From Azolla caroliniana (Eukaryota; Plantae; Polypodiophyta): a stretch of 64,000 bases of DNA. The position numbers were made by a program, and so were the translations under genes. Below the pieces are notes generated by a model. It saw nothing but the letters and a program-made list of their open reading frames with translations, did not search any database and was not told where the DNA came from. Location of the stretch: contig JBHGNT010000003.1 of assembly GCA_043228905.1 (NCBI GenBank), forward strand, positions 9,858,001-9,922,000, read 5' to 3'. Positions 8,662-52,208 of this stretch are shown piece by piece; positions within the stretch are counted from its first letter, which is position 1; every line of letters begins with the position of its first letter.

Positions 8662-9062
8662 TTTCAGATGGATCTTACTGGTAACAAAAATCTAACAAAT
8701 TCGAGGGGTATTTCAGGTGATTTCAGAGGGATCTTACTGGTAACAAAAATCTAACAATTTCGAGGGGTATTTCGGTTGATTTCAGAGGGATCTTACTAAT
8801 AACAAATCTAACCATTTCCAGGGGTATTTCGGGTGATTTCAGAGGGATCTTAATGGTAGCAAAAATCTAACAATTTCGAGGGGTATTCCGGGTGATTTGC
8901 AAAAGCCAATTCTGCTGACATTTATGTATACATACATATACAGAATTAGCAGGATTATTCATATGCAAATCATTATTTATGTTCAAAAGCCAATTTTGCT
9001 GCCATTTATGTATACATATACAGTATTAGCAGGATTATTCATTTGCAAATCATGATTTATGC
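8662..9062. repeat. Intronic tandem repeats: ~59-bp unit x4 (8662-8897) and ~83-bp unit x2 (8900-9062)
   Basis: Repeated tttcagagggatcttactggtaacaaaaatctaacaatttcgaggggtattt, and caaaagccaatt..ttagcaggattattcat..gcaaatcat. Confidence 0.88.
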
Positions 9063-9106
9063 TTTTTTGCTTTTTACCTTTCTAAATTTGTGTATGTACA
9101 ATGTAG

Positions 9107-10032
9107 ATGACAAGGGTAACCTGATATCCAGAGAGGAAGTGAGAGATATACCTGGTGTGTTAGATCTCCTCCCAGAGGATTTCCCACTATGTGTAACATT
9201 CGATGAAACACACTTTAGGTTCCGATTCATTACATCCATGTCATGCCTGATCCGGGATGCTCCCGCCATCATCATTAACACAGTCGAGGAGCTCGAGAAA
9301 GATGCAGTGGTAGCCCTGAACGACAGGAAGAAGGTCTTCACAGTCGGGCCCCTTTTGCTTATGTCCGAGCCGCCCATATTGCGACTAGATGTAAATTATT
9401 GGACCGAAGAAGACCATTGTCTACAATGGTTAGAAAATCATGGTTTGTCTAGAGTACTTTACATCTCATTTGGTAGTGTTGCATCGCTGTCATTGGAGCA
9501 TTTCCGAGAGTTTGCGATCGGACTCGAGGCGAGCAATCAGCCTTTTTTGTGGGTCGTGAGACGGGATTCGATCGATGCACCATTGGAAGAAGCTCTTCCC
9601 GATGGATTCTTGACCCGAACAAAAGATCGAGGCCTCATCATTTCATGGGGCCCTCAACTTATGATCCTCTCGCACCCTGCCATCGGTGCCTTTCTCACCC
9701 ATTGCGGTTGGAACTCGATCATAGAAAATGTGGCCACTGGGCTTGTTCCGATGATATGCTGGCCTCATGTGGCAGAGCAACGTCTCAACCGCCGTCTCAT
9801 CACCAATTCTTGGAAGATCGGCCTTGGCTTCAAACATAATGAGGATGGAAGCGTTAGTCGAGAGGAAATCACCCGAGTCGTGAAGGAGGTGATGGAAGGT
9901 GAACGTAGTCACGAGCTCCGATCCATGACTAAAACACTTCGAGACTCGGTTCGCAGGTCCGTAAGTAAGGGTGGCTCATCATATGCTAGTTTCGAGGACC
10001 TCTTGGATTACATTCTTCATCTCAATGAATAG
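9107..10032 (+). CDS. UDP-glycosyltransferase (GT1 family), exon 2; spliced product about 468 aa
   Basis: Acceptor tgtag|AT at 9106 is in frame with exon 1. Contains VLYISFGS and the PSPG box WGPQLMILSHPAIGAFLTHCGWNS..WPHVAEQ; stop TAG at 10030-10032. Confidence 0.94.
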
Positions 10033-11649
10033 GAAGGATTGACAAGTTTGCTCCCAGAGTTCCTTTCCATTGAAGTATATCAATATTTTACACTTGGGGA
10101 TATGCTAATGAACAATGTTTTATATATATTCAATTCATTTAACTACTGAATGTTATATTCAATTCATGTATATGTGTTTTTGGAAAACTTCCATGAAGAG
10201 AATTTGCAATATGTCTTGAGCAAAGCTTGAAATGTTTGATGCGGAGCTCCAGATTACTTGAGATCTGGTGGGTGCTATCTCCCCATATGGTCCCTTTCCA
10301 AAACCAATGATGCCTCAATCCTTGAACCCTAAATTGAAAGAGGAACATCAAACACTTAACATCAGAAAAGAACCATTAAGGACGTAGCATTCTTAGAAAC
10401 ATCAGAGTTTTATTAGTATATGTTCTCATAATAAAATATCCCTAACATGGATTCAATTATCACTGAATATTCTAGCAAGCAAAAGAACCTTATATAAGCG
10501 CACCAAAACCTCTTTGCAAAAGGTAAGTCTAGTTGTGTGGAAAAGAAACAAGATAAATTTTCAGTCAATTGGTATTGCTACATATACATGGATTGGTTGA
10601 TCCCATATATGTGAAATACAAATGTACATTCAAATTAGGAACCCATTTGTTTCAATTAAACAATATTGCCTATGAAGACTTGGGATAGATTGGTGTTTGA
10701 AGGGTACCACAAAATTGTTAATGGTAAGTCCTAACCTGTTGTATCATCATTCGGTGGCATCACTTTCATGTGTCTCATCTAAAGCACAAAATGAGTGAAA
10801 TTTAAGTGAGCTATATGCAAAGTTGTGGAAAATGGTGCAATGTAGTCTGGCATTCTCAATCACCATTTTGATCCAAGATCTTCAAATTGGAGAGTGAGAA
10901 TGGCTATGTGCATAACTATAATTGAACATAATATAGGTTATAGATTGACCCATGCGTGAAATTCGTAATATTCGTAAAATTCAAGAATACAAAATGACCC
11001 CAAGAATATTACAGAACCATTCGTTTATTTATTTATTATTTTTAAAAAATATATATATATTATATACAAAAATATTATTAGTCAAAGGTCTCCTTTTTAA
11101 TGTCAAGAGAGTAAAAAGTGGGGAATTAATGAACCTTTTATTTATGTTTTAAAAATAAAACAAATACTTTAAAGTTTCTCATCTGTTATAAGAATATTAT
11201 TACTGTGAGGTCCCCTTTTTAATGTGAGATAAAAATATAAAATTTTGTGAGAACCTTTTATTTATTCTATTTATTTTACATATATTTTATTTATTTTTTG
11301 TTTTATTAAAAATTAAAACATATACATCTAAGTTTGGTAAAATATTATTAGTGTGAGTTCCCTTTTTAATGTGAAATAAAAATATGAAATTTATGGAACC
11401 TTTTATTTAGTTAATTTATTTACATTTATTTATTTATTTTTCGTTTTATTAAAAAATAAAACAAATACATTTAAGTTTTATATATATTATAAAATATTAT
11501 TAGTACGAGGTTCCGTTTTAATAACAGATAAAAATATCAATTTTGGTGGGAGTGTAAAGTGGGAAATTAATGAACCTTTTATTTATTATTTATTATGTTT
11601 TTATATTTATTAAAAATCAAACAAATACTTTTAACTTTTAAGTTTTCCA

Positions 11650-14600
11650 AATGGGTGATAAATGTACAGCTGAATTTTTTCATGCAATGAGACCCAATCA
11701 TAATGCGGTTTCAATCAAACAACTACAAGATGAGAATGGGACCATCTCATCTGACCCTAAAGTGATGAGAGAAATAGCCACACGATACTATTCCAACCTA
11801 CTATCAGCTATTTCATTCTCCGATGAGGATTTAATAAGTCGGTCTTGTGTATGGAATAAAATGAGTTCAAGAATAACACAGGATATGAATGCCAGTCTTC
11901 AAGACGTTCTTACTCATGAGGAATTGAGTGAAGCACTCCAAGCTTTGCCTAAGAATAGTTGTCCAGGTATGGATGGATTAACCCCATCATTTTTCATTAA
12001 ATATTGGGACTTGTTTAAATCAGATTTATGTACAGCATTCCAACAAATTCTTCGAGAGGGCATTATGCCTTCACATTTTACAGAAGGAATAATTTACCTT
12101 ATCCCTAAATCAGAAGGTCCTTCATTGGACATCAAGAAATGGCGCCCAATTACATTACTGAATACGGTGTATAAAATCCTAGCTAAAGCGCTTAGTATAA
12201 GACTTGGTACTATAATGCCTATAGTTATACATCCGTCGCAAACAGGATTTATTCAGGAAAGGAGCATATTGGATAATGTGTATACATTTTGGGAATCTGC
12301 TGCCTTGGCAGCCAAATCTAATCAAGAGTTAGCCATTGTTATGCTTGATTTTGAGAAAGCGTATGACCGTGTTGACTGGGAATTTTTACAAGGTGTACTG
12401 GCTCGTTTTGGTTTCTCGAAAGAATGGATAAAAGGTATTTCTTCATTATATAATTCGGCACAAAGCAGAGTCTTACTGGTTGGGAATTATGGACCTTTGT
12501 TTACTATTTCTCGATCAGTTCGACAGGGTTGTCCTTTAGCTCCTTTCTTGTTTCTGTTTTTTGCTGAGGCAATGATTTCCTTTTTGAATGCTGGTGATAT
12601 TGGTATACGCGGAATACGCATCCCATTCTCACATATAGAAGTAAGGGACGCTGAATTTGCAGATGACACTGCCCTATATTTAAAAGGTGATTTGGAAAAT
12701 CTGCAGAAAACAGAATTGGCCATATCCACATTTTGTAAGGCTTCGGGGGCACTGGTTAATTGGAACAAGTCCTTTGCATTTTGGGTGGGGGATGTAGAGC
12801 CTCCTCTATGGAGTCCACACCCGCAATTTCGATGGATACCATCAGGTTGTCCAGTTCGATACTTAGGGTGTACGATAGGTATTGATCTTTCAATGGAAAA
12901 TCAAGTGGCACCCCTCCTATTGTCACTGCGGAAAAAGTTGTTGTTATGGAGTTCAGCCAAGCTATCTTTTGCTGGTCGGATTGTAGTGGCTAATCAGGTT
13001 TTATTGGCTTCAACATGGTATGTTTTGTCATGTTGGATATTCTCCAAGTCATGTATTCTGAAAATACGTAGATTGGTTCGTAACTTCTTGTGGTCCGGTA
13101 AAACAGAAGGCAATGCTCGGTCCAAAGTGAAATGGGATGTTATTACCTTACCTCGCTCTAAAGGAGGATTAGGTATTATTGATCCAGTGGACCAATCAAG
13201 AGCATTGTTAAGTAAGTTGCTCGTTAGAGGATTTATGCCGGGGCAAGAGATATGGAAAGTATTATTGCTTGACCGTTGCTCAGATTGCTTTCCTCGCTTA
13301 GGTGCTCCCTGGTCGAAGGATGTGAATTGGATATTTAGGGAAAATTTCCGAGTACCTTCAGCCACTAGATGGGAAGACAAATTTATTAGGACATTATTTG
13401 CAGCATGGAAACAAGTACTACCTGGTTTGCTTCGCAATAAACCGAACCCCAAACATTATCTTGAGTATCTCAGACAAAAGATAGTTTGGAACCCGTTGTT
13501 TACAACATCAAATGGTTTTGTGTTGGGTTCTAGACAATGGTTATCGTGGGGAAAAATGACAGAAGGTCCCGCGAAAACAGTTCAGACTTGGAAAGAATTT
13601 TTATCGCGATCGTTGGAAGAACAAAAAGAAATCTTACGTAATATGCATGGCGGACATATAATGTACCAACAAATTCAAGAAGCTATGAGTAGACAACCCA
13701 TACCACCCAATAACACTAACCATAGATGGATTGGGGTTTTTTCAAGATTGGAAGTACTCTTGGCTGTTAAGGGTTATTCAAATGATAAGACATACCGGTT
13801 GTTTGAGGTGGATGAAACAAATCAATTGTCTCAGTCCGGGGAAATGGTGATAGATTACCCCTATGCCATTGAGCACAAGATAAGGATAATTGGATATGCC
13901 GATCGTAAATGGTATATTGATCCAATGATAGAGGAAATAAGGACACATTGGAAGTTGTGGGTGTTAGCTAAAAGACCGGTATTCAGATTAGATTGGGACC
14001 CAATTGACTATCATTGGACAGATCCTTACACGGGTAACAAGTTCAATTTCTTCCAATATTCTGTACAGTTGGGAAGACATGTACTTTCAGATACACGTGA
14101 TGTGGTACCAGCTGCATCTCAATATTGGAATCAACAAGGTATTACTCCCCAATTCCTTGCAAAATTCTGGGCTATCTTATGGGCAAGAAAACAGCAACAC
14201 AAAATATTACATGTACAGTGGTTAGTTGTACACAAGGCGTTGCCGGTTGGCACATGGTTGCATAGGATGGGAGTGTCTTCATGTTGTACTCGATGTCATT
14301 TACAAACGGAAACTCAAAAACATTGTTTATGGGAATGCATTGATTCTCAACAGATATGGCAACGGCTCCTTAGAATTTTCGCTAATTATTTTCCCCCGTT
14401 GGTTCTCACTTGGGGCATGGTCGTTTGGACATCACTTGCCCGTGATGTGTTTCATTATGGCATCGAATCTATGGACCATGGGTTTTACACTAAAAATGGA
14501 AGTGTTCGTACATTATCAATGATGTCATTACAGTTTTCAGGAGTAAGGAAGGAAGTTCAGCCAATATGGGAGATATTGAGTAGTACCACTGTCTATCACA

Positions 14601-14924
14601 TTTGGAAAGCTCGGTGTTCTCTCGTTTTCCATAATCTGAAAACACCACCTGCTGAAGTGATTTCTAATATTTGGTTAGAGATAGTTCATGCTTTGAAGGG
14701 TCAATGGGATGGTATAGTGGGAGATTCTGATGCTAAAATTGCTCAACGGCATGAGTTTCTTATTATTTGGACAGCTACTCCATTTGTGACATCCAGGTAC
14801 ACTACTCCTTATTGGCATTTTCAGCCACCGAAATGGTTGTTTCCCCCGCCGATTACATAGAGGTTTAAAATCTTGTAATTTGTTTATACTAATGACAGGA
14901 TATCTTCTTTAAAAAATAAAAAAA
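11650..14924 (+). mobile_element. 5'-truncated L1-like LINE with A-rich tail and 17-bp TSD
   Basis: TSD aacttttaagttttcca at 11633-11649 and 14925-14941; A-rich tail at ~14911-14924. Confidence 0.93.
11651..14860 (+). CDS. LINE ORF2 (RT + C-terminal zinc knuckle), endonuclease lost by 5' truncation
   Basis: WRPITLLNTVYKILAK, LDFEKAYDRV, VRQGCPLAP, FADD, GGLG and CTRC..ETQKHCLWEC; 1069 aa open. Confidence 0.93.
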   Translation: MGDKCTAEFFHAMRPNHNAVSIKQLQDENGTISSDPKVMREIATRYYSNLLSAISFSDEDLISRSCVWNKMSSRITQDMNASLQDVLTHEELSEALQALPKNSCPGMDGLTPSFFIKYWDLFKSDLCTAFQQILREGIMPSHFTEGIIYLIPKSEGPSLDIKKWRPITLLNTVYKILAKALSIRLGTIMPIVIHPSQTGFIQERSILDNVYTFWESAALAAKSNQELAIVMLDFEKAYDRVDWEFLQGVLARFGFSKEWIKGISSLYNSAQSRVLLVGNYGPLFTISRSVRQGCPLAPFLFLFFAEAMISFLNAGDIGIRGIRIPFSHIEVRDAEFADDTALYLKGDLENLQKTELAISTFCKASGALVNWNKSFAFWVGDVEPPLWSPHPQFRWIPSGCPVRYLGCTIGIDLSMENQVAPLLLSLRKKLLLWSSAKLSFAGRIVVANQVLLASTWYVLSCWIFSKSCILKIRRLVRNFLWSGKTEGNARSKVKWDVITLPRSKGGLGIIDPVDQSRALLSKLLVRGFMPGQEIWKVLLLDRCSDCFPRLGAPWSKDVNWIFRENFRVPSATRWEDKFIRTLFAAWKQVLPGLLRNKPNPKHYLEYLRQKIVWNPLFTTSNGFVLGSRQWLSWGKMTEGPAKTVQTWKEFLSRSLEEQKEILRNMHGGHIMYQQIQEAMSRQPIPPNNTNHRWIGVFSRLEVLLAVKGYSNDKTYRLFEVDETNQLSQSGEMVIDYPYAIEHKIRIIGYADRKWYIDPMIEEIRTHWKLWVLAKRPVFRLDWDPIDYHWTDPYTGNKFNFFQYSVQLGRHVLSDTRDVVPAASQYWNQQGITPQFLAKFWAILWARKQQHKILHVQWLVVHKALPVGTWLHRMGVSSCCTRCHLQTETQKHCLWECIDSQQIWQRLLRIFANYFPPLVLTWGMVVWTSLARDVFHYGIESMDHGFYTKNGSVRTLSMMSLQFSGVRKEVQPIWEILSSTTVYHIWKARCSLVFHNLKTPPAEVISNIWLEIVHALKGQWDGIVGDSDAKIAQRHEFLIIWTATPFVTSRYTTPYWHFQPPKWLFPPPIT

Positions 14925-20163: not shown

Positions 20164-24157
<3,994 letters not shown>

Positions 24158-24363: not shown

Positions 24364-24440
24364 TACACTGTACACATACACTGTACACATACACATACAC
24401 ATACACTGTACACATACACATACATACATAACATACACTG
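24330..24440. repeat. (CATACA)n-type microsatellite, left flank of the Mutator-like element
   Basis: Directly visible. Confidence 0.95.
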
Positions 24441-24447
24441 TAGTCAG

Positions 24448-24630
24448 AAGGAGCCCGACTCTGCGAAAAGGAGCCCGACTCTGCCACAGGGAGCCCGACT
24501 CTGTCAAAAAGGAGCCCCGCTGTCAGACAGCCTATGCAAGAGGGAGCCCGACTCTGTCAGAAGGAGCCCCGCTGTCAGATCACATCAGTAAGAAGGAGCC
24601 CGACTCTGTCAAAAGGAGCCCGACTCTGTA
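24448..24630. repeat. Left array of GGAGCCCGACTCTG motifs
   Basis: About 8 copies/variants of aaggagcccgactctg. Confidence 0.93.
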
Positions 24631-24811
24631 GCAACAAACATCAAAAACTCCACAAAATTGTAAGTGTACAACAAATATTTGCCATGAAACTGATCATAAA
24701 ATTTCTCAACAAAACCTAAAGATTCAAATAACAAGTCTTACATAAAATATTAAAATGTCAAATGTTGACAACCCTAAAATGAAATATGAATATACACGTT
24801 ACATATTAAGA

Positions 24812-27734
24812 TTATGGCTCATGTCGGGATGATTGCAAGATGCAACCACAATTTTTACAGCATGTAACATTTGAGTCCCTTGAAGTCAAGGTCAAGCCAT
24901 CACAACGCAAACACCGAACCTTCTCATGGTCAACCAATGGCAATCTCCTCCTAGCCCGACTAGCACCTCTTTGTAGTTTTCCGGAGTGGGATTTGGAAGT
25001 GTTTGGGGAGCTGCCAATAAGTTCTTGCGAGATGTCTATTGTTGCACTTCTTTTGGCACCGATTTGTTGGTTGCGACTTATTGATCTACCATCTTCTTTA
25101 TTGGTTGATTTTGGTGCACCAACGCGATACACCTTCTCAGCCACATCTTCCAATGTTTGTATACCTTCGACAATAGTTGCACGGTCGAAGGTTCCTAACC
25201 CTTGCTCGAGACATTGAAGTGCTTTCATGACCGTTTGTATTTTGGACTTGAATGATTCAATCTCGGATATTGTGGGGTTTGTCTCCTCTACTTGCTCTAC
25301 CTCTGCCTCCACTTCTATTTCTGTATTATGGTCCATTCGCATTTGGGTCGCGTGATCTATAAAAGGCAATGAGCCACATAAATGTGGCATATGCCTCTCA
25401 ATAATCATTCGGATACCTAGTAAATGCTTACATTTACTCACAATGTCTTGGCAATCACAATATGAGCATTGGAGTGAGACATTATACCATAGAGTGGGAG
25501 TCGTCATGCTCAAGATTCTAAACCAATATCGGGCCTCGTCGACAATTTCAATTGTGGAAGTATTGTCGACATACCTTTCCAATATTCTCTCCGCTTCTTT
25601 AAGTCGGGACCTTTGATCCCTACAATTCGCACGGGGTGCAAACCGACCACTCTCACATATTTCTTGTCGTTGCTTGTACCACTCTATTACCGTTCCTCCT
25701 ATGCAAGTGCCAGTTTCACTATCCCCGATTAAGACATGCAGAAGGTCGGTAATTGATCGGTTTATTCTTCCCCTCAAGGTAGTATACTTGATAAACTGCC
25801 AATGTCTTTCCACAATATTGGTAGTGTCAACGTGTCCATAGTTGAACATTCTACCAAACTTGGGCCAGAGTTTCCTCCACACACATGTCAAGCCACACCA
25901 TCCTCCTTCTATATATTGCCAAACACCGGGCTTGTCCACATATTCTAACTTTAACTCCTCACACATTGCATTGAATGATGATTCAGTAATGCATTGCATC
26001 AGTTGGCACATTCGTTGATAAAGATGGATTCTCTCATTTGCACTTACTTTTGGCAACAAGTTGTCCACCCATGACTTTTTGGCGTGAAACTGACACAACA
26101 AAAGTCGACAATGTGTTTGGGACCGTTGCCCATTTACAACAATCCAAGATTGACGGTCTGTTGCAACCACATTAGTTATGGCATTATATGATGTCCAACA
26201 TTTATCGATCACTATCGCATTTGGCCTCACCATGGGCATCCTTGCGAATATGACTCTCAAACAAGTTTCTAATTCCACTTGCTCATGGTTTGATCCCTTA
26301 TCAGAACTACAAAGCATGTACCATAATGGGATCCCAATTCCCATGGCGTTGGGGGCAACTGCTGCATATAATGGTAGCCCGAATTGGTTTGTTTTAAATG
26401 TCGAGTCGATTGCCCAAGAGTTGTTTAGGGTCAACCGCTCACACATTTCCAACATCCATTGATCTTGAAGTATCAAGATAAATGGTTGTATGGGGGGAGA
26501 TCCTGGTTCACCAGTCAAGTAGGGTTGAACATGAGCCCATCAAAGCCCAATCAACCTTAGTCATGACACTCCCGATTTTTAACCTATTTGCCATGTTATG
26601 GACCTCCTTTGGTATCATAAAGAACCGATAGGTAACAAGCTCTAATGGACTAGCCTTGGACTTATGATATGCTTCCTTACGCATGCTCATTCGTGCCACA
26701 TGCCTTGCACACCCAACATCAAATAGGTCATCTTTGCAACAACTTATGACATTGGGGTGTACTGGCAAATGGTACACATCCGACCTACTACATGGTACAT
26801 GACCACTGTGAGGTCCATATATTGAAATGGTAAGTGTCTCAATGTCAACATCATTATTGATTCTAACATCCACATGGAATGTGCACCCACATCGGGGTGT
26901 GCACCTGTGTCGTCGAGTGGAATTAGACGCAAGTCGAGATGTCCCAGCACGATGGCAACTATACCTAGTCACACGCATACCCTTCTTGACTCCTTTCCTT
27001 AAACGTGTGTGGTACTTGGTTTGCAAATCCGTGAGCGCATCGTCTAATTGGTGGGTTTCTACCTTGATCACTTCTATGGGTAGGGTCTTGTTATATTTGG
27101 CCATGCTTGATCCCAAACCTTCTATCGAGTCGACCTTCGATACCGTTTGGCAACCACAACTTGTAATGAGTGCTTTCACGTACTCCGGTGGGATGCCATA
27201 ATCACGTACATCAGTCGCATAAACTAGCTTTAACTCTTTAAGAGTCTTTGAAAACGTGTGATGGGATGTGTCACCATGTGACGCTAATACTACTTCCCTC
27301 CATTTCTCGACGTATAAGACTTGAAGATTAGGTGATGCTTTAAGGTAAATTGCACTCTCAAACCTGAGAATGAGACGACTCTTCATGCGCCTCCATGCAT
27401 GAAGTGAAAGAGGTGCTCCCCTTGCGACATCACGTAATGCTTCCAATGTTACCTTAACTTGTCCCAATAAATCTTTAATCATCAAATTATACGTACCTCT
27501 TGAAAATGCAAAATACCTGGGGGAACAATACATGAAGGGATCGACCGCCTCATCCTCACGATCGGAATCTGATGACTCAAAAGGATCCTCCAATTCGTCC
27601 TCGGATGCATTGGATGACCATGACGTATCCTCCAATTCATCTTCTGACATGGCGAAGACACCATGATGCATTGTGCTCTCCATAGCAAATACAATATGAT
27701 CAAGAATGCCAATGATTGAGGTGAATGAAATCAA
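24812..27734 (-). pseudogene. MULE-family transposase split by a frameshift near 26540 (ORFs 27734-26508 and 26518-24812)
   Basis: C-terminal ORF: WAIDSTFKTN (D1), GIGIP, IVIDKC (D2), LLCQFH (CxxH), DTTNIVERHW (E), SWIM YNVS..CDC..CKH. N-terminal ORF: YSCHRAG..RCGCTFHV..HSGH (FAR1/WRKY-GCM1-like). The frames overlap at DWALM / HVQPYLTGEP. Confidence 0.85.
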
Positions 27735-27970
27735 ATGAATTCAAGTGAATGAATTCAAATAATTCACATGAATGGAGTAGATTAATGATCGAGAATGAGA
27801 GTGAATGAAATCAAATGGCCTACAATATGATCAAATGAAATCAAATACAATATGATCAAGAATGCCAATGATTGAGGTGAATGAAGTGAATGAAATCAAA
27901 TGAATTCAAGTGAATGAATTCAAATAATTCACATGAATGGAGTAGATTAACGATCGAGAATGAGAGTGAA
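27690..27970. repeat. ~160-bp duplication rich in gaatgaa, at the transposase 5' end
   Basis: aatacaatatgatcaagaatgccaatgattgaggtgaatg..gaatggagtagattaa occurs twice. Confidence 0.85.
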
Positions 27971-28143
27971 TGATATGAGTGCGAGTGATTAATAGACTAT
28001 TAAGGAAGGGAATGGGTTAATTGGGAATGATGGGAAGACTCTTAGTGCATGCTACTGAATTTGGTGAATTAATTTACTGTAGTCGTTAATATGACTGTTG
28101 AGACGCCATCATTACACGTAGTTGGGCACTTCCCTATTACTGT

Positions 28144-28533
28144 GTCGGGCTCCCTTTTTTAATGAGTCGGGCTCCACATTATCAGTCGGGCTCCCTTTTT
28201 ACCAGAGTCGGGCTCCCTTTTTAATGAATGGGGCTCCCTTTTTTAATGAACATGAATGAGTCGGGCTCCCTTTTTACCAAAGTCGGGCTCCCTTTTTAAT
28301 GAGTGGGGCTCCCTTTTTTAATGAACAAGAATGAGTCTGGCTCCACATTAATCAGTCGGGCTCCCTTTTACCAGAGTCGGGCTCCCTTTTTAATGAGTGG
28401 GGCTCCCTTTTTTAATGAACAAGAATGAGTCGGGCTCCACATTGATCAGTCGGGCTCCCTTTTTACTAGAGTCGGGCTCCCTTTTTAATGAGTGGGGCTC
28501 CCTTTTTTAATGAACATGAATGAGTCGAGCTCC
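28144..28533. repeat. Internal higher-order array of GAGTCGGGCTCC motifs upstream of the transposase
   Basis: Many copies of (a/g)gtcgggctccc(t)n and gtggggctccc, spaced by ttttaatga(acaag). Confidence 0.95.
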
Positions 28534-28819
28534 ACACTAATCACATTGAGTCTTGTTATGTCTTTGAAGAAGATTGACATCGAGTCTTGTTATGTCTTTG
28601 AATAAGATTGACATTGAGTCTTGTTATGTCTTTCGTATTGTTTACAACAAGGACCGAAGCACTCTTTCTATATACTTACTCTTTCTACAACAACATTCTT
28701 TGATTACAACACTCTTTCTATATACTTACTCTTTCTTGGCCTTTCTCAAAAACCATTGCCGTGACTACTTGTCAATAAGCTATTAGTTTTATTCTTTTGA
28801 CACCCAAAACAATTCCAAT

Positions 28820-29240
28820 ATACAACCAAAATGATTTTCATATACAACCAAAATGAGATTCATACACAACCAAAATGAGATTCATATACAACCAAAATGC
28901 CATTCAAAAATTGATTCATATTCAACCAAGATGAGATTCATATACAACCAAAATGAGATTCAAAAATTGATTCATATTCAACCAATATGAGATTCATATA
29001 CAACCAAAATGATTTACATTGAGTCATATACAACCAAAATGATTTACATTGAGTCATCTACAACCAAAATGATTTACATTGAGTCATCTACAACCAAAAT
29101 GAGATTCATATACAACCAAAATGATTTACATTGAGTCATCTACAACCATTGCAATTTACATTGAGTCATCTACAACCAAAATGAGATTCATATACAACCA
29201 AAATGATTTACATTGAGTCATATACAACCATTGCAAAATG
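28820..29240. repeat. Minisatellite of 24-30-bp tacaaccaaaatga.. units downstream of the accessory gene
   Basis: Repeated tacaaccaaaatgagattcata and tacaaccaaaatgatttacattgagtcatc. Confidence 0.92.
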
Positions 29241-29251
29241 ACTCCACGTAG

Positions 29252-30770
29252 TCATATGCCCAAAGTCCTTCGTGCCCATTTTGCCATGATTTTCCGAAGG
29301 AGCTCCACGTCTTCGAATCCAAACCATTGCTCCTTACCCTACAATTGAAGATGCCATCAACAAAAACAAAAACAAATGCTCAAATTCAAATCTCATAAAT
29401 ACTTACAAATTGATCGGACTCAAATCCTTGAATCAACTCCTCGACCAACATGCGAATAGTTTGCATCACGTAATACCCACAATCGGTCCCATTAGGCTAG
29501 ATTAGTAACTACTAAACAAACATGATGTTAACTATTGATATCATGCCCCCAGCATAACAACATGCCTGGTGAACTTATTTCGTGCAGAGTTATCCCATGT
29601 TTTCGAGATTGTCCCTGGACCAACAAAGACAATCCCAATGTCTGCATCCTCATCTGTGTCAGATGATGTAATGAACTCCGAATTACATGGGTCCACTTCT
29701 TTCCTGCGGATTTGGATTTTCGGCCTCCTTGCTTGTTGCATTGTCGACTCTGACAGTTGGTCTTGACCACCATCGATCTCGACATGTGCCTCATCCTTTG
29801 GTATGGGAATTCCATGACTCTTACACTACAATTCATACATAAGATTCACACATAATCATAAGTTTTAAACTCACATAAGATGCACACAAAATCATAAACC
29901 ATACTTACATAATCTTTAGACGCATCCGCAATCTTCAACCTCACTTTTGCCATCCTATGCTCCTTTCCCTCGTCATACCTGGCCATTTGTTGGCTAACGA
30001 ATTGAGCAATGAAATCAGCCTCCTTGCATGTTCGAAGTGAGTCCGGAGTGGCTTTGAAGATTTTTATTGCTCTTGTCCTCAACTTCCTCATGTGTGATTG
30101 GCGTGATCTATTATACTTGAGCTCCGGATCCAAAAAACGATTTATTGATCGTTGTCTTTCGTATTCGCTGAAGAATGATGTGGCTGTACTCCTCATGGAG
30201 GTCGATTGCTCTTCTTCGTCTATCTTTAGCCCCCGAGGCAGTATTACATGGATGCCATGTGCCTTCTGTAAATGGGCCTCCATGTCCGCTTTTTTTCGAA
30301 ACCATCTCCCCTCTTTTCTACACGAATCTCCCACAATACAGGTGCGACATTTGATACCTGTTGAGTCTCTTCCACACTTGAAGAGGGACATAGGGTCCAC
30401 TACAACAATGGTGTCACATTTGCATTAGAAAAACCCAAAATATGCTTACATCAATAATGATTATAAGAATGGACATAAACTCACCATTTACTTTGATATC
30501 TTCAACACCTGGACCCACGTCATGCATGGGGTTCGTATCCATGCTCGAGTCTTGAGTAATGATGTTTTCAGCCTCCGTATCATTGGATTTGGGGCACCTA
30601 ACACCCTTTCTTACATAAACCCTAAACCAACATTCAAGTTAGCACACAAACATTATTATTTATACACAATATAAAGTAGAGAAATGATTCATGCCATACC
30701 TCCCTTCATAGGGTATTGTTTCACCCCAATCTGCATCAAAGTCTATGAAGATCTTGGACCGACTAGCCAT
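29252..30770 (-). pseudogene. Spliced transposon accessory gene: C2H2-like zinc finger plus truncated Ulp1/C48 peptidase C-terminus
   Basis: In-phase GT-AG exons 30770-30700 (MASRSKIFIDFD..), 30597-30485, 30399-29909 (C..C..WFRKKADMEAHLQKAH) and 29825-~29570. Downstream exons give PNGTDCGYYVMQTIRML (~29496-29409) and GKEQWFGFEDVELLRKIMAKW..* (~29338-29252). No His/Asp catalytic exons are seen. Confidence 0.72.
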
Positions 30771-30964
30771 CTGTACAAAACATTTTTAGAAAGGCATTCA
30801 TTACATTACTATTATTTAGGGAGAAAAAACGCAAAGAATGTATACAAAATTTTAGATTTGACATTCAAATGTGGGCATAAAAAAGAGCCCAATACTGCAT
30901 GAATCACATGGGCAAATTCAAGCATTCAAATGTTGGCATTTAAATGACATTCAAATGTTGGCAA

Positions 30965-31510
30965 AATCAAAATCATACATGTATTCAATCATACACAGCC
31001 CATGGAAGATCTTAAATGCACACATACATGTATTAAATCACAGCCTATAGAAGATCTTAAATACACACAAACATGTATTCAATCATACACATGCACACAC
31101 ATTCGCAGCCCATGGAAGATCTAAAATACACAAATACATGTATTCAATCATACACATGTATACACACACATTCCCAAATAAATGTATTCATCATACAACA
31201 AACACACACATTCACAGCCCAAAGAAGATCTTAAATACACACATACATGTATTCAACCATCACACACACAAATGTATTCAATCATACACATGTATACACA
31301 CACATTCCCAAATAAATGTATTCAATCATACAACAAACACACACATTCACAGCCCAAAGAAGATCTTAAATACACACATACATGTATTCAACCATCACAC
31401 ACAGAAATGTATTCAATCATACACACACATACATGTATTTAATCATACACATACACACACAAATGTATTGAATCATACACACATACATGTATTTAATCAT
31501 ACACACATTT
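30965..31510. repeat. Degenerate catgtattcaatcatacac tandem array in the presumed first intron of the accessory gene
   Basis: Includes a ~135-bp near-perfect duplication (31140-31275 vs 31275-31410); upstream donor-like ag|gtaggc near 31601 (- strand). Confidence 0.85.
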
Positions 31511-31729
31511 ATGGTACCTATTAGAAGCAACCCTAAACCTAATAGAAAGAATATGATACCTAATAAAAACCAAAACCTAATAGAAGGAATATGATGCCTA
31601 CCTCTGGACTGCAGGTGCTCGCAGTGCCTCACCGGAGATGTTTGCAACGAGTGCTCGCAGACAGGTGGTGTGCCTCGCTCAAAAACCCTAAACCCTCAAA
31701 CCCACGAATGACAGAAAATGACAGAAAAT

Positions 31730-31992
31730 GGGTTTTTATACTTCCTTGAACATGAATGAGAAGGGCTCCCTTTTGACAAAATGGAGCCATTCTTTAATGA
31801 GTCGGGCTCCAAGGGAGCCCTTCTTTAATGAGTCGGGCTCCAAGGGAGCCCTTCTTTAATGAGTCGGGCTCCATTTTGCTTGAATGGGTTTTTATACTTC
31901 CCTGAACATGAATGAGAAGGGCTCCCTTTCTGCGAAAAGGAGCCCTTCTTTAATGAGTCGGGCTCCATTTTGTATGAGCCGGGCTCCCTTTT
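31730..31992. repeat. Right array of GAGTCGGGCTCC / GGGAGCCC motifs
   Basis: Repeated ttctttaatgagtcgggctcc(aagggagccc). Confidence 0.92.
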
Positions 31993-32137
31993 TACGTGGC
32001 GCGCTTTTTCGCGCCTATTCCACATCCATCTTGGACGGTGGAGATCGAACGCGCCATCAGCGGTGCGACCTGCACCGTCCCTCTCCGCGATTCCCTCACT
32101 TGGCCTCTTTAATATTTGGTAGTAGTTAGACACCACG

Positions 32138-44987: not shown

Positions 44988-47462
44988 AAACACAAACATG
45001 TATTATATAGTAGCTTCTTTACGTAATCTTTCGAGAGAGATAGTTGATATATATCTTGGTTTTAGCTTTGAGGTTGATGTGGTGAGGAGCTTTGAATTTT
45101 TGTTGTCTCGTGAATCTATAATTTTACGCTTCTTCCAATCAATCTTTGGATTGTGAAGTTCGAACCAAGGCAACCCAAGAACAATTGGATGTTAAGGACT
45201 GCTTATGATATTGAAAGATATTACACAAGCTAAATTTCCACGAACTACATGAATAGGCTCTGATTGTTCGGTATGATGCAACAAAACGTCCATTGATTAC
45301 TGCTACAGAAGCTAGACGAGGAAGCTTATAGAGTATAATTTCTTGTGTTATGGAAAAATCCCGATCCATGAAACATGAGTTGACTCCTGAATCCAAGAGT
45401 GCAGATGCAAGAACTTGATGACATCTTGATGTGCTGAGTTGAACTTGTGCCGTTAAAACTTCACTGACTCGGTTCGATGAAATGGAACCCAAGCTATTAG
45501 AGATATGATCTAATGTAAGCGTATGATAAGGAGAAAAGAATGATAGATAGATAGATAGAAAGGAGAGAGAGAAAGAAGGGTGCCGATCCACCCGGCCACC
45601 CCCAAGCGAAGGGATTGAGACGGACTCGAGCCTCGATTGGCGTCCAATACCACTGTCGTGGCATCGAGTCGTACTTGGTGCTGGCGCGCTCGCTACAAGA
45701 GTTAAACCACCACGAAACAAAGTCTCGACGTAGTCAAAAGATGATGAAACGAGGGTAGCTAGGCCTCTTATTTATAGCGATACCCAAGGCCTCCAGGCAA
45801 GTTCACACTTGGCCTAATGGGTTGTCTCAATCCCAAAGATTAAAAGTAATCCTCCCCTTCTTTACACTCTCGTTTAACCCTCACACTTATCCACGTGTAT
45901 AGAATACTACGGTAAATTCTCACCACGGGATAATATATGGTCATGCCCGTAACATACTCCCTCTTTAAAACATTGCACTCTTGTAATGGGAAGTTAGTTC
46001 TGAGAGTATTTTCACGTTCCCATGTGGCATCTTTTATTGATTTATCCATCCATTTTATTTTAAATTCTCAGATTTCTTTAGTACGTAATTTTTTTGTTTT
46101 AACATCGAGAATTCTTTCTAGTACATGTGGTTTAGAAGATAATTATTCAGAAGTAACTAGAGTTTTAGTTGTAACTGTATTGTTGCCAAAACGTAGAAGT
46201 TCTTTTAGACGACTCACATGAAAAACTGGATGAATATCAACACCATCAGGAAGAGTGAGACAATAGGCTGATGACCCAATGCGTTTGAGGACTGTAAAAG
46301 GTCCACAAAACTGTGGGGCTAACTTAGCGCACTTACCCTTAGACAATGTCTTAGAATTGTGAGGTACACGTAAAAATACCTTCTGTCCAGGGTTGAATAC
46401 ACGAGGTTGCCTATGATGATCGACATAAAAACGTGCTCTATCTTGAGCTATTTTTATATTATCTCGTGCAATATGCAACATATCTTGCATATCCCAAAGA
46501 AAGTTTTACGTACTTCGCAACTCATCATGATGTATATTAACATCAATCGGGGCTCGTGGCTGAAAACCATACATCAACATAAAATGACTATATCTCGTCG
46601 ACATATGCTTGGAGCTGTTATAAGCAAACTCCAAAATTGGGAGATAATGTTCCCATTTTGTTGGTTTTGTACCAACGTATGCTCGAAGCATATCTTCAAT
46701 AATTTGATTTACTCGTTCTGTCTGTCCATTGGATTGAGGATGATCCGTGGAGCTCATGCTCAATGTAGTTTCTAAGTTCTTAAAGACTTGCGTTCAAAAG
46801 TGTTGGGTTTACGGTCCCTTTCGGATGGGATGGTCGGATGTCGGAGATGAATGACGACAAGCCCGATTGCGGTTTCGGAACCGGATGATGAAGACCCCGG
46901 CTTTGGAGCCGGATGACGAATGTACCCGGAGAGAGATCCGGATGCAGGGACATATCTGTGAATATGTTTGCCAAGGGCCCTTGAGGCTATAGTTGTAAAT
47001 AGCCCTAAAGTCATATGTGTATAAATATGACTTAGGGCAAACAGTTTTAATGTTGCTACTTATTTTTCTGTTTTTCCACTCAAGAGGAGTGAAGAGAGAG
47101 AGCAGCCGTGAGAGAGAGAGAGAGCAGCCGTGAGAGAGATAGAGCGCGAGAGAGGAAGAGGTCGACGCCTCTGTGTAATTCCGCCGCCTGTGGCGAGGAC
47201 AGCGAGCTCAAGGTCGTCGCCTTGCAGCTCGCCATTGTATATTTCTCTGTGCATAGTTTTGGTTTGGAGTCTTGTACTCCCGTGGTTTTTCCCGTACAGG
47301 GTTTTCCACGTTAAATCGTGTGCCCACTTATTTACTTTTGCATTTCCCATTTTCTACAACAACGATTCGTGTGTTTCCTTGGTTGTGGCCGAGAGGTGGA
47401 GTTTGGAAAGTGTCGATTGATTATTTCCATCAATTTGGTATCAGAGCAGGCTGCTGCAGAAA

Positions 47463-50400
47463 ATGGAAGGCGGCGGCAGCGGGCAGCCGGGGATGATGGT
47501 GTTGAATGCGCAGAATTACGCCGACTGGAAGATCAAGATGGAGGATCTTCTGATTGTTCGGGACCTGTACGAACCGATTGACAGGTCGGAAATACCGAAG
47601 GGAGTACTTGAGTCGGAATGGAGGCTTCTGAACCGGAAAGCCGTTGCAACCATTCGGCAATACGTAGACGTGAACGTTCTACAACATGTGGCGAACGACA
47701 TCAACGCATATGAGATGTGGCGGAAGCTGTCGGGCCTCTACGAGAGGAAGAATGCGTTGAACCGGACCTCCCTGATGAGGAAGATAGTGAACCTCAAGTA
47801 CCGGGACGGCGAGAGTATGGTGGAACACGTAAGCACGTTCATGGGATTCGTGAACCAGCTTGCGGCGATCAAGTTCCCGCTGGAGGATGCAATGCAAGCC
47901 ATCATTCTGATGTGTACATTGCCGGAAAGCTGGGAGAACTTGGTGGTGACTCTCAGCACCTCCTGCACGGAAGATAACTTGTCCCTACAAACGGTAAAGA
48001 CAAGTATTTTGAACGAAGAAGCGCGTCGGAGAGATAAAGAACCGGCCTCTGACTCGAAGGCGCTGCTTACCGAATCGGAACGGGGAAGACAATGGAACCG
48101 GAGTCCGCAAAGACGGGAGAAGTCGGGGACCCGGTCGCAGTCAAGAGGAAGACCCACATGCTTCCACTGTGGGAAGCCGGGGCACTTCCGGAAGAATTGT
48201 CGGCATTACCGAAAGGACAACGGAGCCGACGACACCGATTCGAAGAAGTCACCGGAGAGAAACGGTGCATACCGGGGAGCCACGGACCGGAGAGGTCCGG
48301 ATCGGCGAGGGCAGGACCGGAAAGGAACGACGGCACTCGCGGCAAGTGAGGAAGAAATCATGCTCATCACCAAAGAAGGTGAACTAAACATTACCGACGA
48401 TGAGACGACCTGGGTGGTCGATTCCGGAGCGTCGTTCCACCTAACCCCGGAGAGAAGATACTTCTCATCCTACACAGCCGGTGAGCATGGCTGTGTTCGG
48501 ATGGGAAATGAAGGTACGTGCCGGATTTCCGGCATAGGAGACGTGTGGTTGACAACCTCGACCGGATGCAAAATGCTGCTGAAGGATGTCCGACACGTTC
48601 CGGAGGTTCGATTGAACCTGATTTCGGCCGGGAGGCTGGACGATGAAGGCTACACAGGTAGCATCCGGAACGGCGTAATGAAGTTCAGCAAGGGGAGCCT
48701 GATAGTGGCTCGGGCCCGGAAAGTCAACACACTGTACCTTATGAATGCCTGGTTGTGTCCGGAAGAGTTGAACGTGGCAGCCGACACTGCCGGTGAGCTG
48801 TGGCACAAGAGACTGTGCCACATGAGTGAGAAGGGGATGAAGAGGCTTGCAGAAGACAACCTTATTCCAGTGAAGCATGTGCACCTGGAGAAGTGCACCG
48901 ATTGCCTGGCCGGTAAGCAGAACCGAACCTCCTTCCACTCAAGGCCACCGACGAGACGTAGCGCACCATTGGAGTTGGTGCACACTGATGTGTGTCAGGT
49001 AGAAACGAAGTCACATGGCGGAGCCCAGTACTTCGTAACATTCATAGATGATCATAGCCGAAAACTGTGGACGGCACCGCTGAAGACAAAGGACCAAGTG
49101 TTGTGCGTCTTCAAAGAACTCCACGCGAGAGTGGAAAGGGAATCCGGCAAGAAGCTGAAAGCGATACGAGCGGATAACGGAGGGGAATACCGGGGGCAGT
49201 TCGCGGAGTACTGTCGCTCGAAGGGAATCCGGCTCGAGTTTACTGTGCCGAAGACGCCGGAACTGAACGGGCTGGCTGAGAGGATGAACCGGACCATAAT
49301 GGAGAGGGTCCGGAGTATGCTGGCGCATGCGGAATTACCCAAGGGGTTTTGGGCTGAGGCGATGTCGACGGCGACATACGTGATAAACAGATCATCCTCA
49401 GTACCTTTGGACGGAGACACGCCGTAGAGAGTGTGGACCGGTAGGGAAGTATCCTACCGGCATCTGAAGGTGTTCGGGTGTCTCGCATACGTGCATGTGG
49501 CAAAGGACCGGAGAGGAAAGCTAGATCCAAAGACCCGGCCATGCATATTCCTCGGTTACGGCGATGACGAGTTCGGCTACCGAGTATGGGACCCGGTCGA
49601 CAAGAAGATATTCCGGAGTCGTGATATCATCTTCATGGAGAACAAGACACTCGCCGACTGGGAGTCGGAGAAGAAGATGAAGAGCTCCAAGTCGACCGGT
49701 GAGGATAAACTCTACGAGGAGCAGTCCCGACCGGCAAGGGACCGGTTAACACTCGAAGATCCGGCCGAAGACGGTGAAGAAACAGAACCGGCCGAGGAAG
49801 ATGAAAATGATACCGGAACCGGCCCCGATCCCGAAATGGATTCGGATGAAGAAGAAATGGAGGAGCCGGTTACCGAAGCTCCGGAACGGAGATATCCTCT
49901 AAGAGAGAGAAGGGCCCCCCGGAGATTTCCGGAACCAGAGCACGTGCTGCTAACCGACGAGGGGGAGCCGGAGAGCTTTGAAGAAGCAAAGCATGACACT
50001 CAGAGTCGCAGGTGGTTGAGTGCCATGCAGGACGAGATGGATTCCCTGCATGAGAACCACACATATGAACTTGTGGAGTTGCCGAAAGGAAAGCGGGCAC
50101 TTCGAAACAAGTGGGTGTTCAAGCTGAAACCGGGAGATGCCGGAAACCCCCCGAGATACAAAGCCAGGATCGTGGTGAAGGGGTTTCAGCAGAAGAAGGG
50201 CGTCGACTTCGACGAGATATTTGCCCCGGTAGTGAAGATGACCTCCATCCGGACGGTGCTGAGCATAGCGGCAAGCATGGACCTCGAGGTAGAACAGATG
50301 GACGTGAAGACGGCATTCCTTCACGGTGACCTCGAAGAAGAGATCTACATGCAGCAACCGGAAGGATTCGAGAAGAAAGGGAAGGAGCACCTGGTATGCC

Positions 50401-51536
50401 GGTTGAAGAAGAGCCTTTACGGTCTGAAGCAGGCTCCCCGGCAATGGTACCGGAAGTTCGACTCTTTCATGACCGACGAAGGGTACCTAAAAACGCAGTC
50501 CGACCACTGCGTGTTTGTGAAGAAGTTCGAAGGAGGAGACTTTCTAATACTCCTCCTGTACGTGGACGACATGTTGATCGTCGGACGGGACCAGGTCAAG
50601 ATACGGATGCTGAAGAAGGCTCTTCATCGAACCTTCTCAATGAAGGACTTGGGTCCGGCGAGACAAATACTAGGGATGCACATCATCCGGGACCGGAGCA
50701 AGAAGCAGTTGTGGCTGTCACAGGAGAAGTACGTGACAAAGGTGCTTAAACGGTTCAACATGTCGGAAGCAAGACCGGTCGGATCGACCCTCCCGGCAAA
50801 CTGCAAGCTGTCCAGCAAGCAAAGCCCCAAGACAAAGGCTGAGAAGGAGGACATGATGAAAGTGCCATATGCCTCTGCCGTCGGAAGCTTGATGTACACA
50901 ATGGTGTGTACAAGATCGGACATTGGATACGCAGTCGGAGTGGTGAGCCGGTACATGAGCAATCCCGGCAAAGAGCATTGGAACGCTGCCAAGTGGATAC
51001 TCCGATACCTGAAGGGCACGGCAAACGTGTGCCTCCGATTCGGTTCCGGTAAGCCCGAACTCGACGGCTTTACCGATTCGGATATGTCGGCTGATGCAGA
51101 TACCAGCCGGTTCACATCAGGGTATGTGATGACGTATGCAGGGGGAGCTGTTTCATGGTAGTCAAGGCTGCAGAAGACGGTTGCGTTGTCAACCACGGAG
51201 GCGGAGTACATGGCGGCTGTTGAAGCCGGCAAGGAAATAATATGGATGAAGGACTTCATTAGAGAGCTCGGTATCCGGCAGGAGGAGTACCGACTCTACT
51301 GCGACAGTCAGAGTGCAATCCACCTTGCGAAGAACGCGGCCTATCACTCCCGGACGAAGCACATCCAGCGAAGATATCACTGGATCCGGGAAAGGATAGA
51401 AGACAAGGAGTTCGTGCTGACGAAGATCCACACGGACGAGAACGGGTCGGATATGCTGACCAAGGTGCTCACACCCGACAAGCTGGAAGCATGCCGGAAG
51501 AGGATCGGATTGGAGAGACATCCCATGCCGAAGTGA
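47463..51536 (+). pseudogene. Copia gag-pol copy 1 with two in-frame TAG stops (49425-49427, 51159-51161)
   Basis: CFHCGKPGHFRKNC, WVVDSGASFH, LWHKRLCH, VHTDVC..IRADNGGEY, YKARIVVKGF, YVDD and RNaseH CDSQSAI, all in one frame. Confidence 0.95.
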
Positions 51537-52208
51537 AGGGGGAGTTTGTTGGGTTTACGGTCCCTTTCGGATGGGATGGTCGGATGTCGGAGATGAATGA
51601 CGACAAGCCCGGTTGCGGTTTCGGAACCGGATGATGAAGACCCCGGCTTCGGAGCCGGATGACGAATGTACCCGGAGAGAGATCCGGATGCGGGGACATA
51701 TCTGTGAATATGTTTGCCAAGGGCCCTTGAGGCTATAGTTGTAAATAGCCCTAAAGTCATATGTGTATAAATATGACTTAGGGCAAACAGTTTTAATGTT
51801 GCTACTTATTTTTCTGTTTTTCCACTCAAGAGGAGTGAAGAGAGAGAGCAGCCGTGAGAGAGAGAGAGAGCAGCCGTGAGAGAGATAGAGCGCGAGAGAG
51901 GAAGAGGTCGACGCCTCTGTGTAATTCCGCCGCCTGTGGCGAGGACAGCGAGCTCAAGGTCGTCGCCTTGCAGCTCGCCATTGTATATTTCTCTGTGCAT
52001 AGTTTTGGTTTGGAGTCTTGTACTCCCGTGGTTTTTCCCGTACAGGGTTTTCCACGTTAAATCGTGTGCCCACTTATTTACTTTTGCATTTCCCATTTTC
52101 TACAACAACGATTCGTGTGTTTCCTTGGTTGTGGCCGAGAGGTGGAGTTTGGAAAGTGTCGATTGATTATTTCCATCAATTTGGTATCAGAGCAGGCTGC
52201 TGCAGAAA

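What the first reader, a model, noticed from the sequence alone, without database searches (positions are those of the whole stretch)
24437..32137. Two-gene Mutator-like transposon: multi-zinc-finger transposase, C2H2/SUMO-protease accessory gene and motif arrays (candidate anti-silencing system)
Seen: a MULE DDE-SWIM transposase and a separate spliced gene (C2H2-like finger plus Ulp1-type NGxDCG motif) are co-oriented in one unit. The unit has no long TIRs and has arrays of one CG-containing 12-mer (GAGTCGGGCTCC) at the left end and 5' of each gene. Known: Arabidopsis non-TIR MULEs carry Ulp1-like genes (KAONASHI), and VANDAL elements use VANC proteins that bind short tandem motifs to remove silencing. 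Inference: this may be an independent lineage in which the accessory protein binds the arrays and counteracts SUMO/methylation-based silencing. I do not recognise it as a described family, and this copy is defective.
Basis: partly seen in the sequence, partly recalled or inferred. Interest (0 to 1): 0.8.

Follow-up and report, generated by a model that had tools for sequence, protein, structure and literature searches.

The report
Two-gene Mutator transposon with family-specific motifs
This is a broken copy of a multicopy plant jumping gene, likely from a fern, that carries a second gene (a zinc finger joined to a SUMO-protease-type domain) and arrays of a short DNA motif that differs between sister families, which likely lets each family switch on its own silenced copies.

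Summary
The element, both genes and the three 12-mer arrays are real (30 of 31 matches lie in three clusters; 1.8 expected). 'No long TIRs' is wrong for the family: 95%-identical copies have ~110-150 bp TIRs, and this copy lost its left one. It is dead: 38-bp frameshift in the transposase, ~0.5 kb deletion in the protease domain. Relatives show the two genes are stably linked (7 loci, four families, transposases 41-95% alike), the Ulp1 His-Asp-Cys triad is intact and under purifying selection, and the gene is spliced in RNA of a relative. Families A and B keep the full three-array layout, and A-D each have their own CCC-core motif, while TIRs stay 75-81% alike; a clade without the gene has no arrays. 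The accessory domain shows no match to VANC-type or other Pfam families. Best reading (0.5): a VANC/KAONASHI-like, family-specific self-activation system reached independently. Rival (0.33): the transposase binds the arrays. Binding and demethylation are untested. The scan noted similar two-gene MULEs on other DNA.

The parts
24440..24626 (-). Left (3') motif array, 6 exact 12-mers facing inward; the ~135 bp TIR that precedes it in intact copies is deleted, so the array abuts an (ATAC)-type microsatellite
   Evidence: L001-L004
24812..27671 (-). MULE transposase pseudogene (959 aa in intact P0004): acidic N-terminus, H2C2-like finger, FAR1/WRKY-like finger, DDE core, SWIM-type motif, C-terminal C4 ribbon; 38-bp deletion at 26537/26538 shifts the frame; 98.3% identical to L001
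28142..28533 (+). Internal motif array, 17 copies, upstream of the transposase gene; spacings 19-22 or 32 bp; no TIR remnant found here
28543..29250 (.). AT-rich tandem repeats (22/30/34 bp units) downstream of the accessory gene
29252..29338 (-). Accessory gene, last coding exon
   Evidence: (splice joint 29337/29406 in 4+1 reads and one contig)
29407..29496 (-). Remnant of the Ulp1 exon (catalytic Cys); ~0.5 kb with acceptor, His and Asp deleted at 29496/29497 between two 6-bp microhomologies
   Evidence: L023
29566..29825 (-). Accessory gene exon 5 (acidic linker); donor is GC here, GT in other copies
   Evidence: (place 29564)
29909..30399 (-). Accessory gene exon 4: C2H2-like finger (C-x5-C-x15-H-x4-H) plus basic long helices; family of 55 representatives, no Pfam family
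30485..30770 (-). Accessory gene coding exons 2 (30700-30770, ATG) and 3 (30485-30621)
   Evidence: splice sites read from sequence
30771..31601 (-). First intron of the accessory gene, behind a non-coding first exon
   Evidence: joint 30770/31602 in 1 read and 1 contig
31758..31987 (+). Right (5') motif array, 7 copies, upstream of the accessory gene
32005..32137 (-). Surviving TIR with internal hairpin; terminus at 32137; 73-81% alike to TIRs of sister families

Best explanation
This is a dead copy of a multicopy TIR-bearing Mutator transposon family whose second gene, a zinc-finger/helix domain fused to an Ulp1-type protease, likely binds the family's own motif arrays and would locally reverse silencing to switch on both genes. 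Shown: structure, TIRs, linkage, family-specific motifs, intact protease triad in relatives, splicing. Inferred: the transposase cuts at the conserved TIRs; the accessory protein docks on the arrays (one next to each TIR, one upstream of the transposase), using finger plus basic helix; the tethered protease removes SUMO (or a related modifier) from nearby chromatin or silencing proteins; protein and motif diverge together so that each family activates only itself.
For: (1) Linkage: finger and Ulp1 exons lie beside a transposase in 7 of 63 loci (L010, L011, L012, L014, L023 upstream, same strand; L036, L037 downstream, convergent), pieces in 5 more; most other loci have short flanks or belong to clade E. 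(2) Motifs are family-specific: A GGAGCCCGAC, B GTC(G/A)CCCAAC, C CTAACCCGGG, D GTAGCCCGGC, 15-32 copies in the own reference locus and 0-1 between families; L011 repeats the three-array layout, L010 with a small middle array, C shows the internal and 3' arrays. TIRs stay 73-81% and DDE cores 86-91% alike, so the arrays change faster than the cutting machinery. (3) The internal array is far from any end and was renewed in each family, which fits promoter control. (4) Clade E (45-50% transposase identity; L016+L018 cover nearly a whole element) has neither the gene nor dense arrays; clade F has both. (5) Ulp1: Pfam C48 E 2e-7 to 4e-11 in 5 of 5 exons scanned that hold the catalytic part, His/Asp/Gln/Cys invariant in 6 of 6, dN/dS about 0.13-0.33 between B subfamilies for finger, helix and protease. 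(6) Spacings in family A are multiples of 10.5 bp (mean cos 0.89, n=30; 8 distinct spacings p=1e-4), weaker in B: one helical face, as for protein docking. (7) A ~500-bp TIR element with 9-bp TSD (8/9) has none of the A-D motifs (L063), so such arrays do not seem required for jumping. (8) Precedent: VANC binds dense same-orientation motifs incl. upstream of the transposase gene (PMC5735166, passages); some VANC genes carry Ulp1 (PMC13317346, passages).
Against: No binding, protease or methylation data. Family D has an array directly between TIR and transposase and no accessory gene in the sequence held (only 282-333 bp downstream). The transposase's WRKY-like domain diverges as fast as the finger (52-62% vs 51-60%), and the pair with the closest WRKY-like domains (C-D, 78%) has similar motifs (9 of 12 by my count). 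A MULE transposase alone can bind and activate its copies (bioRxiv 10.64898/2026.08.24.746577, section 7). The gene/array correlation rests on one loss (clade E). Phasing is not significant in C, D, F or G. This copy carries methylation-type scars (transitions at CG 10/214, CHG 5/130, CHH 9/1079, A/T 15/1869); 0 of 30 motif copies show CG>TG/CA, but only about 2 are expected, so this shows no protection. The finger's fold matches are weak (Z 2.4-4.1) and include RNA- and protein-binding fingers. Contigs of repeats can be chimeric.
Confidence: 0.5

Rival explanations
1. The transposase binds the arrays through its fast-evolving N-terminal fingers, for end pairing and for self-activation; the finger-Ulp1 protein is a helper that acts through protein contacts (for example deSUMOylating the transposase or host factors).
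For: Two of three arrays abut the TIRs in inverted orientation like subterminal repeats; H2C2- and WRKY-like domains are 52-67% alike between most families against 86-91% for the DDE core; family D shows TIR-array-transposase; AtMu1 transposase binds and activates cognate copies.
Against: Clade E transposases keep the same N-terminal fingers but no arrays were found; the array-free L063 has TIRs and a TSD; A and B are transposase sisters (quick tree) yet their motifs are less alike than A and D.
Confidence: 0.33
2. The arrays are sites for a host transcription factor or neutral products of slippage and concerted evolution; the accessory gene is a selected passenger with no link to them.
For: The element is full of other tandem repeats; array units arose by tandem duplication, so spacings are not independent; all A-D motifs share a CCC core.
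Against: One motif fills separated arrays in each family while spacers differ; motifs differ between families in one genome type, which a single host factor would not favour; helical phasing in A and B.
Confidence: 0.12
3. The accessory protein steers insertion to (ATAC)n microsatellites or restrains the element, and does not counter silencing.
For: 12 of 22 distinct TIR flanks are ATAC/TATG-rich against 1.0-1.5% background; an unassigned nucleic-acid-binding finger could read the target.
Against: Microsatellite-targeting MULEs are described without such a gene in their abstracts (PMC4486113, PMC5907723); target preference is shared by families whose fingers are only 51-60% alike.
Confidence: 0.05

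Closest known systems
Arabidopsis VANDAL21/VANDAL6 with VANC21/VANC6 (PMC5735166, PMC10398659; passages)
   Same: MULE with accessory gene; family-specific short motifs in dense, same-orientation tandem arrays in non-coding DNA, including upstream of the transposase gene
   Different: This family has 110-150 bp TIRs; accessory domain has a C2H2-like finger and no PMD/DUF-type Pfam hit; arrays also flank both TIRs; nearest named transposases are from Adiantum and Selaginella; no functional data
KAONASHI (KIU) Ulp1-carrying VANC genes / KI-MULE (via review PMC13317346 and PMC2528002, passages; primary papers not held)
   Same: Accessory gene joins a putative targeting domain to an Ulp1 domain inside a MULE
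   Different: KI-MULEs are non-TIR and the gene is in reverse orientation; here TIRs, same orientation in A-C, convergent in F, and a different N-terminal domain
Spm TnpA and AtMu1 transposase (bioRxiv 10.64898/2026.08.24.746577, abstract, sections 4 and 7)
   Same: Element-encoded protein binds clustered family-specific motifs at ends and activates cognate copies
   Different: TnpA derives from a transposase; here the accessory exon shows no profile match to the element's transposase and carries a protease; an internal array exists
Microsatellite-targeting MULEs MuTAnT and SaTar (PMC4486113, PMC5907723; abstracts)
   Same: Ends flanked by simple repeats; one case of two elements end to end
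   Different: Target is ATAC/TATG-type; elements here are autonomous two-gene forms

Membership tests
Mutator/MULE superfamily | MULE-type DDE transposase | tested here: met
   PF10551 E 2e-9, 3e-10 in P0004; D, D, CxxH and E motifs in the alignment
Mutator/MULE superfamily | Long TIRs (or non-TIR subtype) | tested here: met
   ~110-150 bp TIRs in L001-L004, L010, L011; left TIR lost in the window copy
Mutator/MULE superfamily | 8-11 bp TSD | tested here: inconclusive
   1 of 4 two-ended loci shows a 9-bp duplication (L063, 8/9); L010 and L011 do not (possibly chimeric contigs), L022 lies in microsatellite
Mutator/MULE superfamily | SWIM finger after the catalytic core | tested here: inconclusive
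   CxC-x6-CxH motif conserved; Pfam SWIM not hit
VANDAL / KI-MULE | TIRs absent or degenerate | tested here: not met
   L011 TIR arms 155 nt, 94% complementary
VANDAL / KI-MULE | VANC-type accessory domain (PMD/DUF per PMC6446971 Table 1; DUF1985 recalled) | tested here: not met
   0 of 25 members of A1 hit such a family at E<=0.1; only exon 4 and relatives were scanned this way, other exons
VANDAL / KI-MULE | Ulp1 domain in an accessory gene | tested here: met
VANDAL / KI-MULE | Family-specific motif arrays in non-coding regions | tested here: met
VANDAL / KI-MULE | Transposase falls in the VANDAL clade | not tested
   No VANDAL sequence came from any call; the 33 hits at E<=1e-5 include no named angiosperm protein
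VANDAL / KI-MULE | Accessory protein binds motif and causes sequence-specific hypomethylation | not testable with these tools
   needs binding and methylome experiments
Ulp1/SENP (C48) protease | His-Asp-Cys triad with oxyanion Gln | tested here: met
   invariant in 6 of 6 relatives; yeast Ulp1 best PDB hit E 2e-4; His and Asp deleted in the window copy
Ulp1/SENP (C48) protease | Cleaves SUMO | not testable with these tools
   substrate could be SUMO, NEDD8/RUB or ubiquitin
C2H2 zinc finger | Two Cys and two His in a beta-hairpin/helix fold | tested here: inconclusive
   C-x5-C-x15-H-x4-H; model pLDDT 79; weak matches to Serrate, Kaiso, SWI5 fingers, Z 2.4-4.1
Microsatellite-targeting MULEs (MuTAnT, SaTar) | Ends enriched in simple repeats | tested here: met
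   12 of 22 distinct flanks vs 1.0-1.5%

The most novel reading that the evidence does not exclude
An independently evolved, family-specific anti-silencing system in seed-free plants: an unnamed zinc-finger/helix DNA-binding domain reads helically phased motif arrays and delivers a SUMO protease to its own transposon, a convergent copy of the VANC-Ulp1 design of eudicots, possibly old and widespread (distant relatives at 24-30% identity), and a natural programmable deSUMOylase.
Probability: 0.35. Interest if true: 0.8.

Novelty: new variant of a known kind. Interest (0 to 1): 0.6.

Why it matters
Why so many plant transposons keep an Ulp1 protease is an open question (the review PMC13317346 calls its function unknown). 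Here several sister families offer matched sets of protein and motif, so swap experiments can ask directly whether a tethered SUMO protease lifts silencing. If so, sequence-specific anti-silencing arose more than once in land plants, also in TIR elements, and the finger-helix domain is a new DNA-targeting module. If the transposase is the binder, it is still a clear natural series of motif/DNA-binding-domain co-divergence.

Tried and rejected
No own genome is held, so no genome-wide consensus, copy number or TSD census. Helitron- or CACTA-like reading of the ends: rejected once TIRs and GCTC/CGAC termini appeared. Zisupton/KDZ reading (SWIM + Ulp1, recalled): rejected, the core is Pfam MULE. 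Chance nesting: rejected. Searches for full-length annotated accessory proteins found none (602-2000 aa only, so it missed the expected ~540 aa, 336-2000 aa): weak evidence. Viral contigs: 17 pattern hits, none related. Foldseek and VIA searches of the 163-aa exon: no match at E<=0.001, best Z 7.1 to generic helices; this does not show a new fold. Atlas: only sub-0.9 leads, some with zf-C2H2 on 14% of members (homologue P0046). No solved relative of the transposase. No accessory-transposase homology. CpG o/e per region was uninformative. No RNA holder was listed; RNA evidence comes from two added raw-read runs of a related organism. Contig depth was not used as copy number. The second ORF behind some clade E transposases (L019, L028, L040) has no Pfam hit. 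Paper searches listed no description of this family; Repbase, subscription journals and supplements were not seen, so a catalogued name cannot be excluded. Sasaki 2022 was not held.
Full report
Observation. The 12-mer occurs 31 times with up to two mismatches, 30 of them in three clusters (6 at 24450-24626 on the minus strand, 17 at 28142-28533, 7 at 31758-31987); shuffles give 1.76. Two long minus-strand frames hold a MULE transposase (PF10551 E 2e-9, weak FAR1). P0004 is an intact 959-aa relative, 98% identical. The window copy has a 38-bp deletion at 26537/26538 and is otherwise 98.3% identical to L001. Of the 33 hits, those with an organism name are from Adiantum (38-50%) and Selaginella (33%), so the host is likely a fern or other seed-free vascular plant (inference). 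No own genome is held.

Ends. A scan of metagenome contigs gave 63 related loci. L001-L004 (about 95% identical) run on past window 24480 into the reverse complement of window 32024-32133 (94-96% over ~110 bp). L010 and L011 hold both ends; in L011 the arms are 155 nt and 94% complementary. Termini read GCTC-GTG or CGAC-GTG; the window has CGTG-GTG ending at 32137, in line with loose ends near 32133 in reads and contigs. So the family has TIRs and this copy lost the left one. A 9-bp TSD (8/9) is seen in 1 of 4 two-ended loci (L063); L010 and L011 show none and may be chimeric. 12 of 22 distinct TIR flanks are ATAC/TATG-rich against 1.0-1.5% background; one match without a clear terminus and matches too near a contig end were left out.

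Accessory gene. It has a non-coding first exon and six coding exons, about 540 aa when intact (my sum). Against L023 (98%) the window lacks 499 bp with the acceptor, His and Asp of the protease, and has a GC for GT donor. In poly(A) reads of a related organism 66 and 103 of about 12.6 million records were laid, mostly in the sense direction, with joints at 29337/29406 (4+1 reads, 1 contig) and 30770/31602 (1 read, 1 contig) and 5 reads running into the part missing here: low, spliced expression. Intact exons hit Peptidase_C48 at E 2e-7 to 4e-11; His, Asp, Gln and Cys are invariant in 6 of 6. Exon 4 has 55 representatives down to 24% identity, no Pfam family above cut-off, and folds confidently (pLDDT 88) into a finger and long basic helices; the finger resembles C2H2 fingers only weakly (Z 2.4-4.1). 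Between B subfamilies dN/dS is 0.059/0.467 (finger), 0.064/0.354 (helix), 0.116/0.357 (protease).

Linkage. Finger and protease exons lie beside a transposase in 7 of 63 loci and pieces in 5 more: upstream and co-oriented in families A, B, C (transposases 73-75% to A, accessory exon 4 43-47%), downstream and convergent in F (41-49%). A quick transposase tree gives ((A,B),(C,D)), E, (F,G); the careful search did not finish and several rows are partial. A FastTree of exon 4 also joins A with B, then C, with F outside, and shows a spare lineage (P0046) that might belong to D (weak support). Synonymous sites of the accessory gene are near saturation between A, B and C (pS 0.71-0.87) while the DDE core is not (0.38-0.51); this suggests the gene-and-array module is older than, or exchanges less than, the catalytic core.

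Motifs. Each family has its own motif with a shared CCC core: A GGAGCCCGAC, B GTC(G/A)CCCAAC, C CTAACCCGGG, D GTAGCCCGGC; counts between families are 0-1. L011 has 13, 14 and 5 copies inside the 5' TIR, upstream of the transposase and inside the 3' TIR, oriented as in the window. F and G share a CAAGTA(A/G)ACC-type repeat. Clade E, where L016 with L018 covers almost a whole element, has neither dense arrays nor the gene. Family A spacings are 19-22, 31-32, 41 or 53 bp (mean cosine 0.89 at 10.5 bp; distinct values p=1e-4); B is weaker (p=8e-4); C, D, F and G are not significant.

Mechanism. Shown: a TIR MULE with a conserved, spliced finger-Ulp1 gene and family-specific arrays at both ends and before the transposase. 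Inferred: the transposase acts at the conserved TIRs; a self-encoded protein docks on the arrays; most likely (0.5) this is the accessory protein, which would bring a protease to silenced chromatin and activate its own family. Against this: family D shows TIR-array-transposase with no accessory gene in the short sequence held; the transposase WRKY-like domain diverges as fast as the finger and is closest in C-D, whose motifs are similar; a MULE transposase can activate its own copies; the copy shows CG and CHG transition excess (4.7% and 3.8% against 0.8%), and the lack of CG decay in the arrays is not significant.

Comparison. It works like VANDAL/VANC and the Ulp1-bearing KIU genes (PMC5735166 and PMC10398659, passages; PMC13317346, passages; PMC2528002, passages) but is not a member: it has TIRs and no VANC-type domain was detected. 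The MULE survey PMC6446971 (passages and section 6) lists no fern group or finger-Ulp1 accessory gene. I also saw abstracts of PMC9168764, PMC5907723 and PMC4486113 and passages of PMC13547354. Nine paper searches listed no description of this family; Repbase and the primary KAONASHI and Sasaki 2022 papers were not seen. Two unchecked notes of this scan describe similar two-gene MULEs with motif arrays in other genomes; they are leads, not support.

Verdict. Real, recently active family; new variant of a known kind; interest 0.6. The window copy is a poor representative; L023, L011 and L014 give the testable genes.

Noticed in passing
window 20663-24154 (-): The element sits about 280 bp upstream of the likely first exon of a host TLC-domain (ceramide synthase/LAG1-like) gene; exons at 20663-21995 hit TRAM_LAG1_CLN8. 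The lost TIR is on the side facing this promoter.
   Followed up: partly
L003:3875-4234 and L011:1-265: A family A end and a family B start lie 2 bp apart, like the end-to-end SaTar arrays; may be one locus seen twice.
   Followed up: partly
L063:116-621: A ~500-bp non-autonomous element with both TIRs, 9-bp TSD and none of the A-D motifs, inserted in a transposase fragment.
   Followed up: yes
L019:2678-3436, L028:5255-6124, L040:1889-2632: An unrelated ~250-aa open frame follows the transposase in one clade E subfamily; no Pfam hit.
   Followed up: partly
L010 arrays: Subfamily B2 motif is mostly GTCACCCAAC (13 of 23) where B1 has GTCGCCCAAC (21 of 32): a CG-removing shift across arrays.
   Followed up: no
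window 47421-55904: Two near-identical tandem copies of a copia-type element 4746 bp apart with high GC and no CpG depletion.
   Followed up: no
window 8950-10029 (+): UDP-glycosyltransferase ORF (Pfam UDPGT E 4e-21).
   Followed up: no
window 11642-14857 (+): 1072-aa open frame that looks like a LINE ORF2 (by eye).
   Followed up: no
P0083, P0086, P0087, P0090: Distant (24-31%) relatives of the finger-helix domain on short contigs; context unknown.
   Followed up: partly
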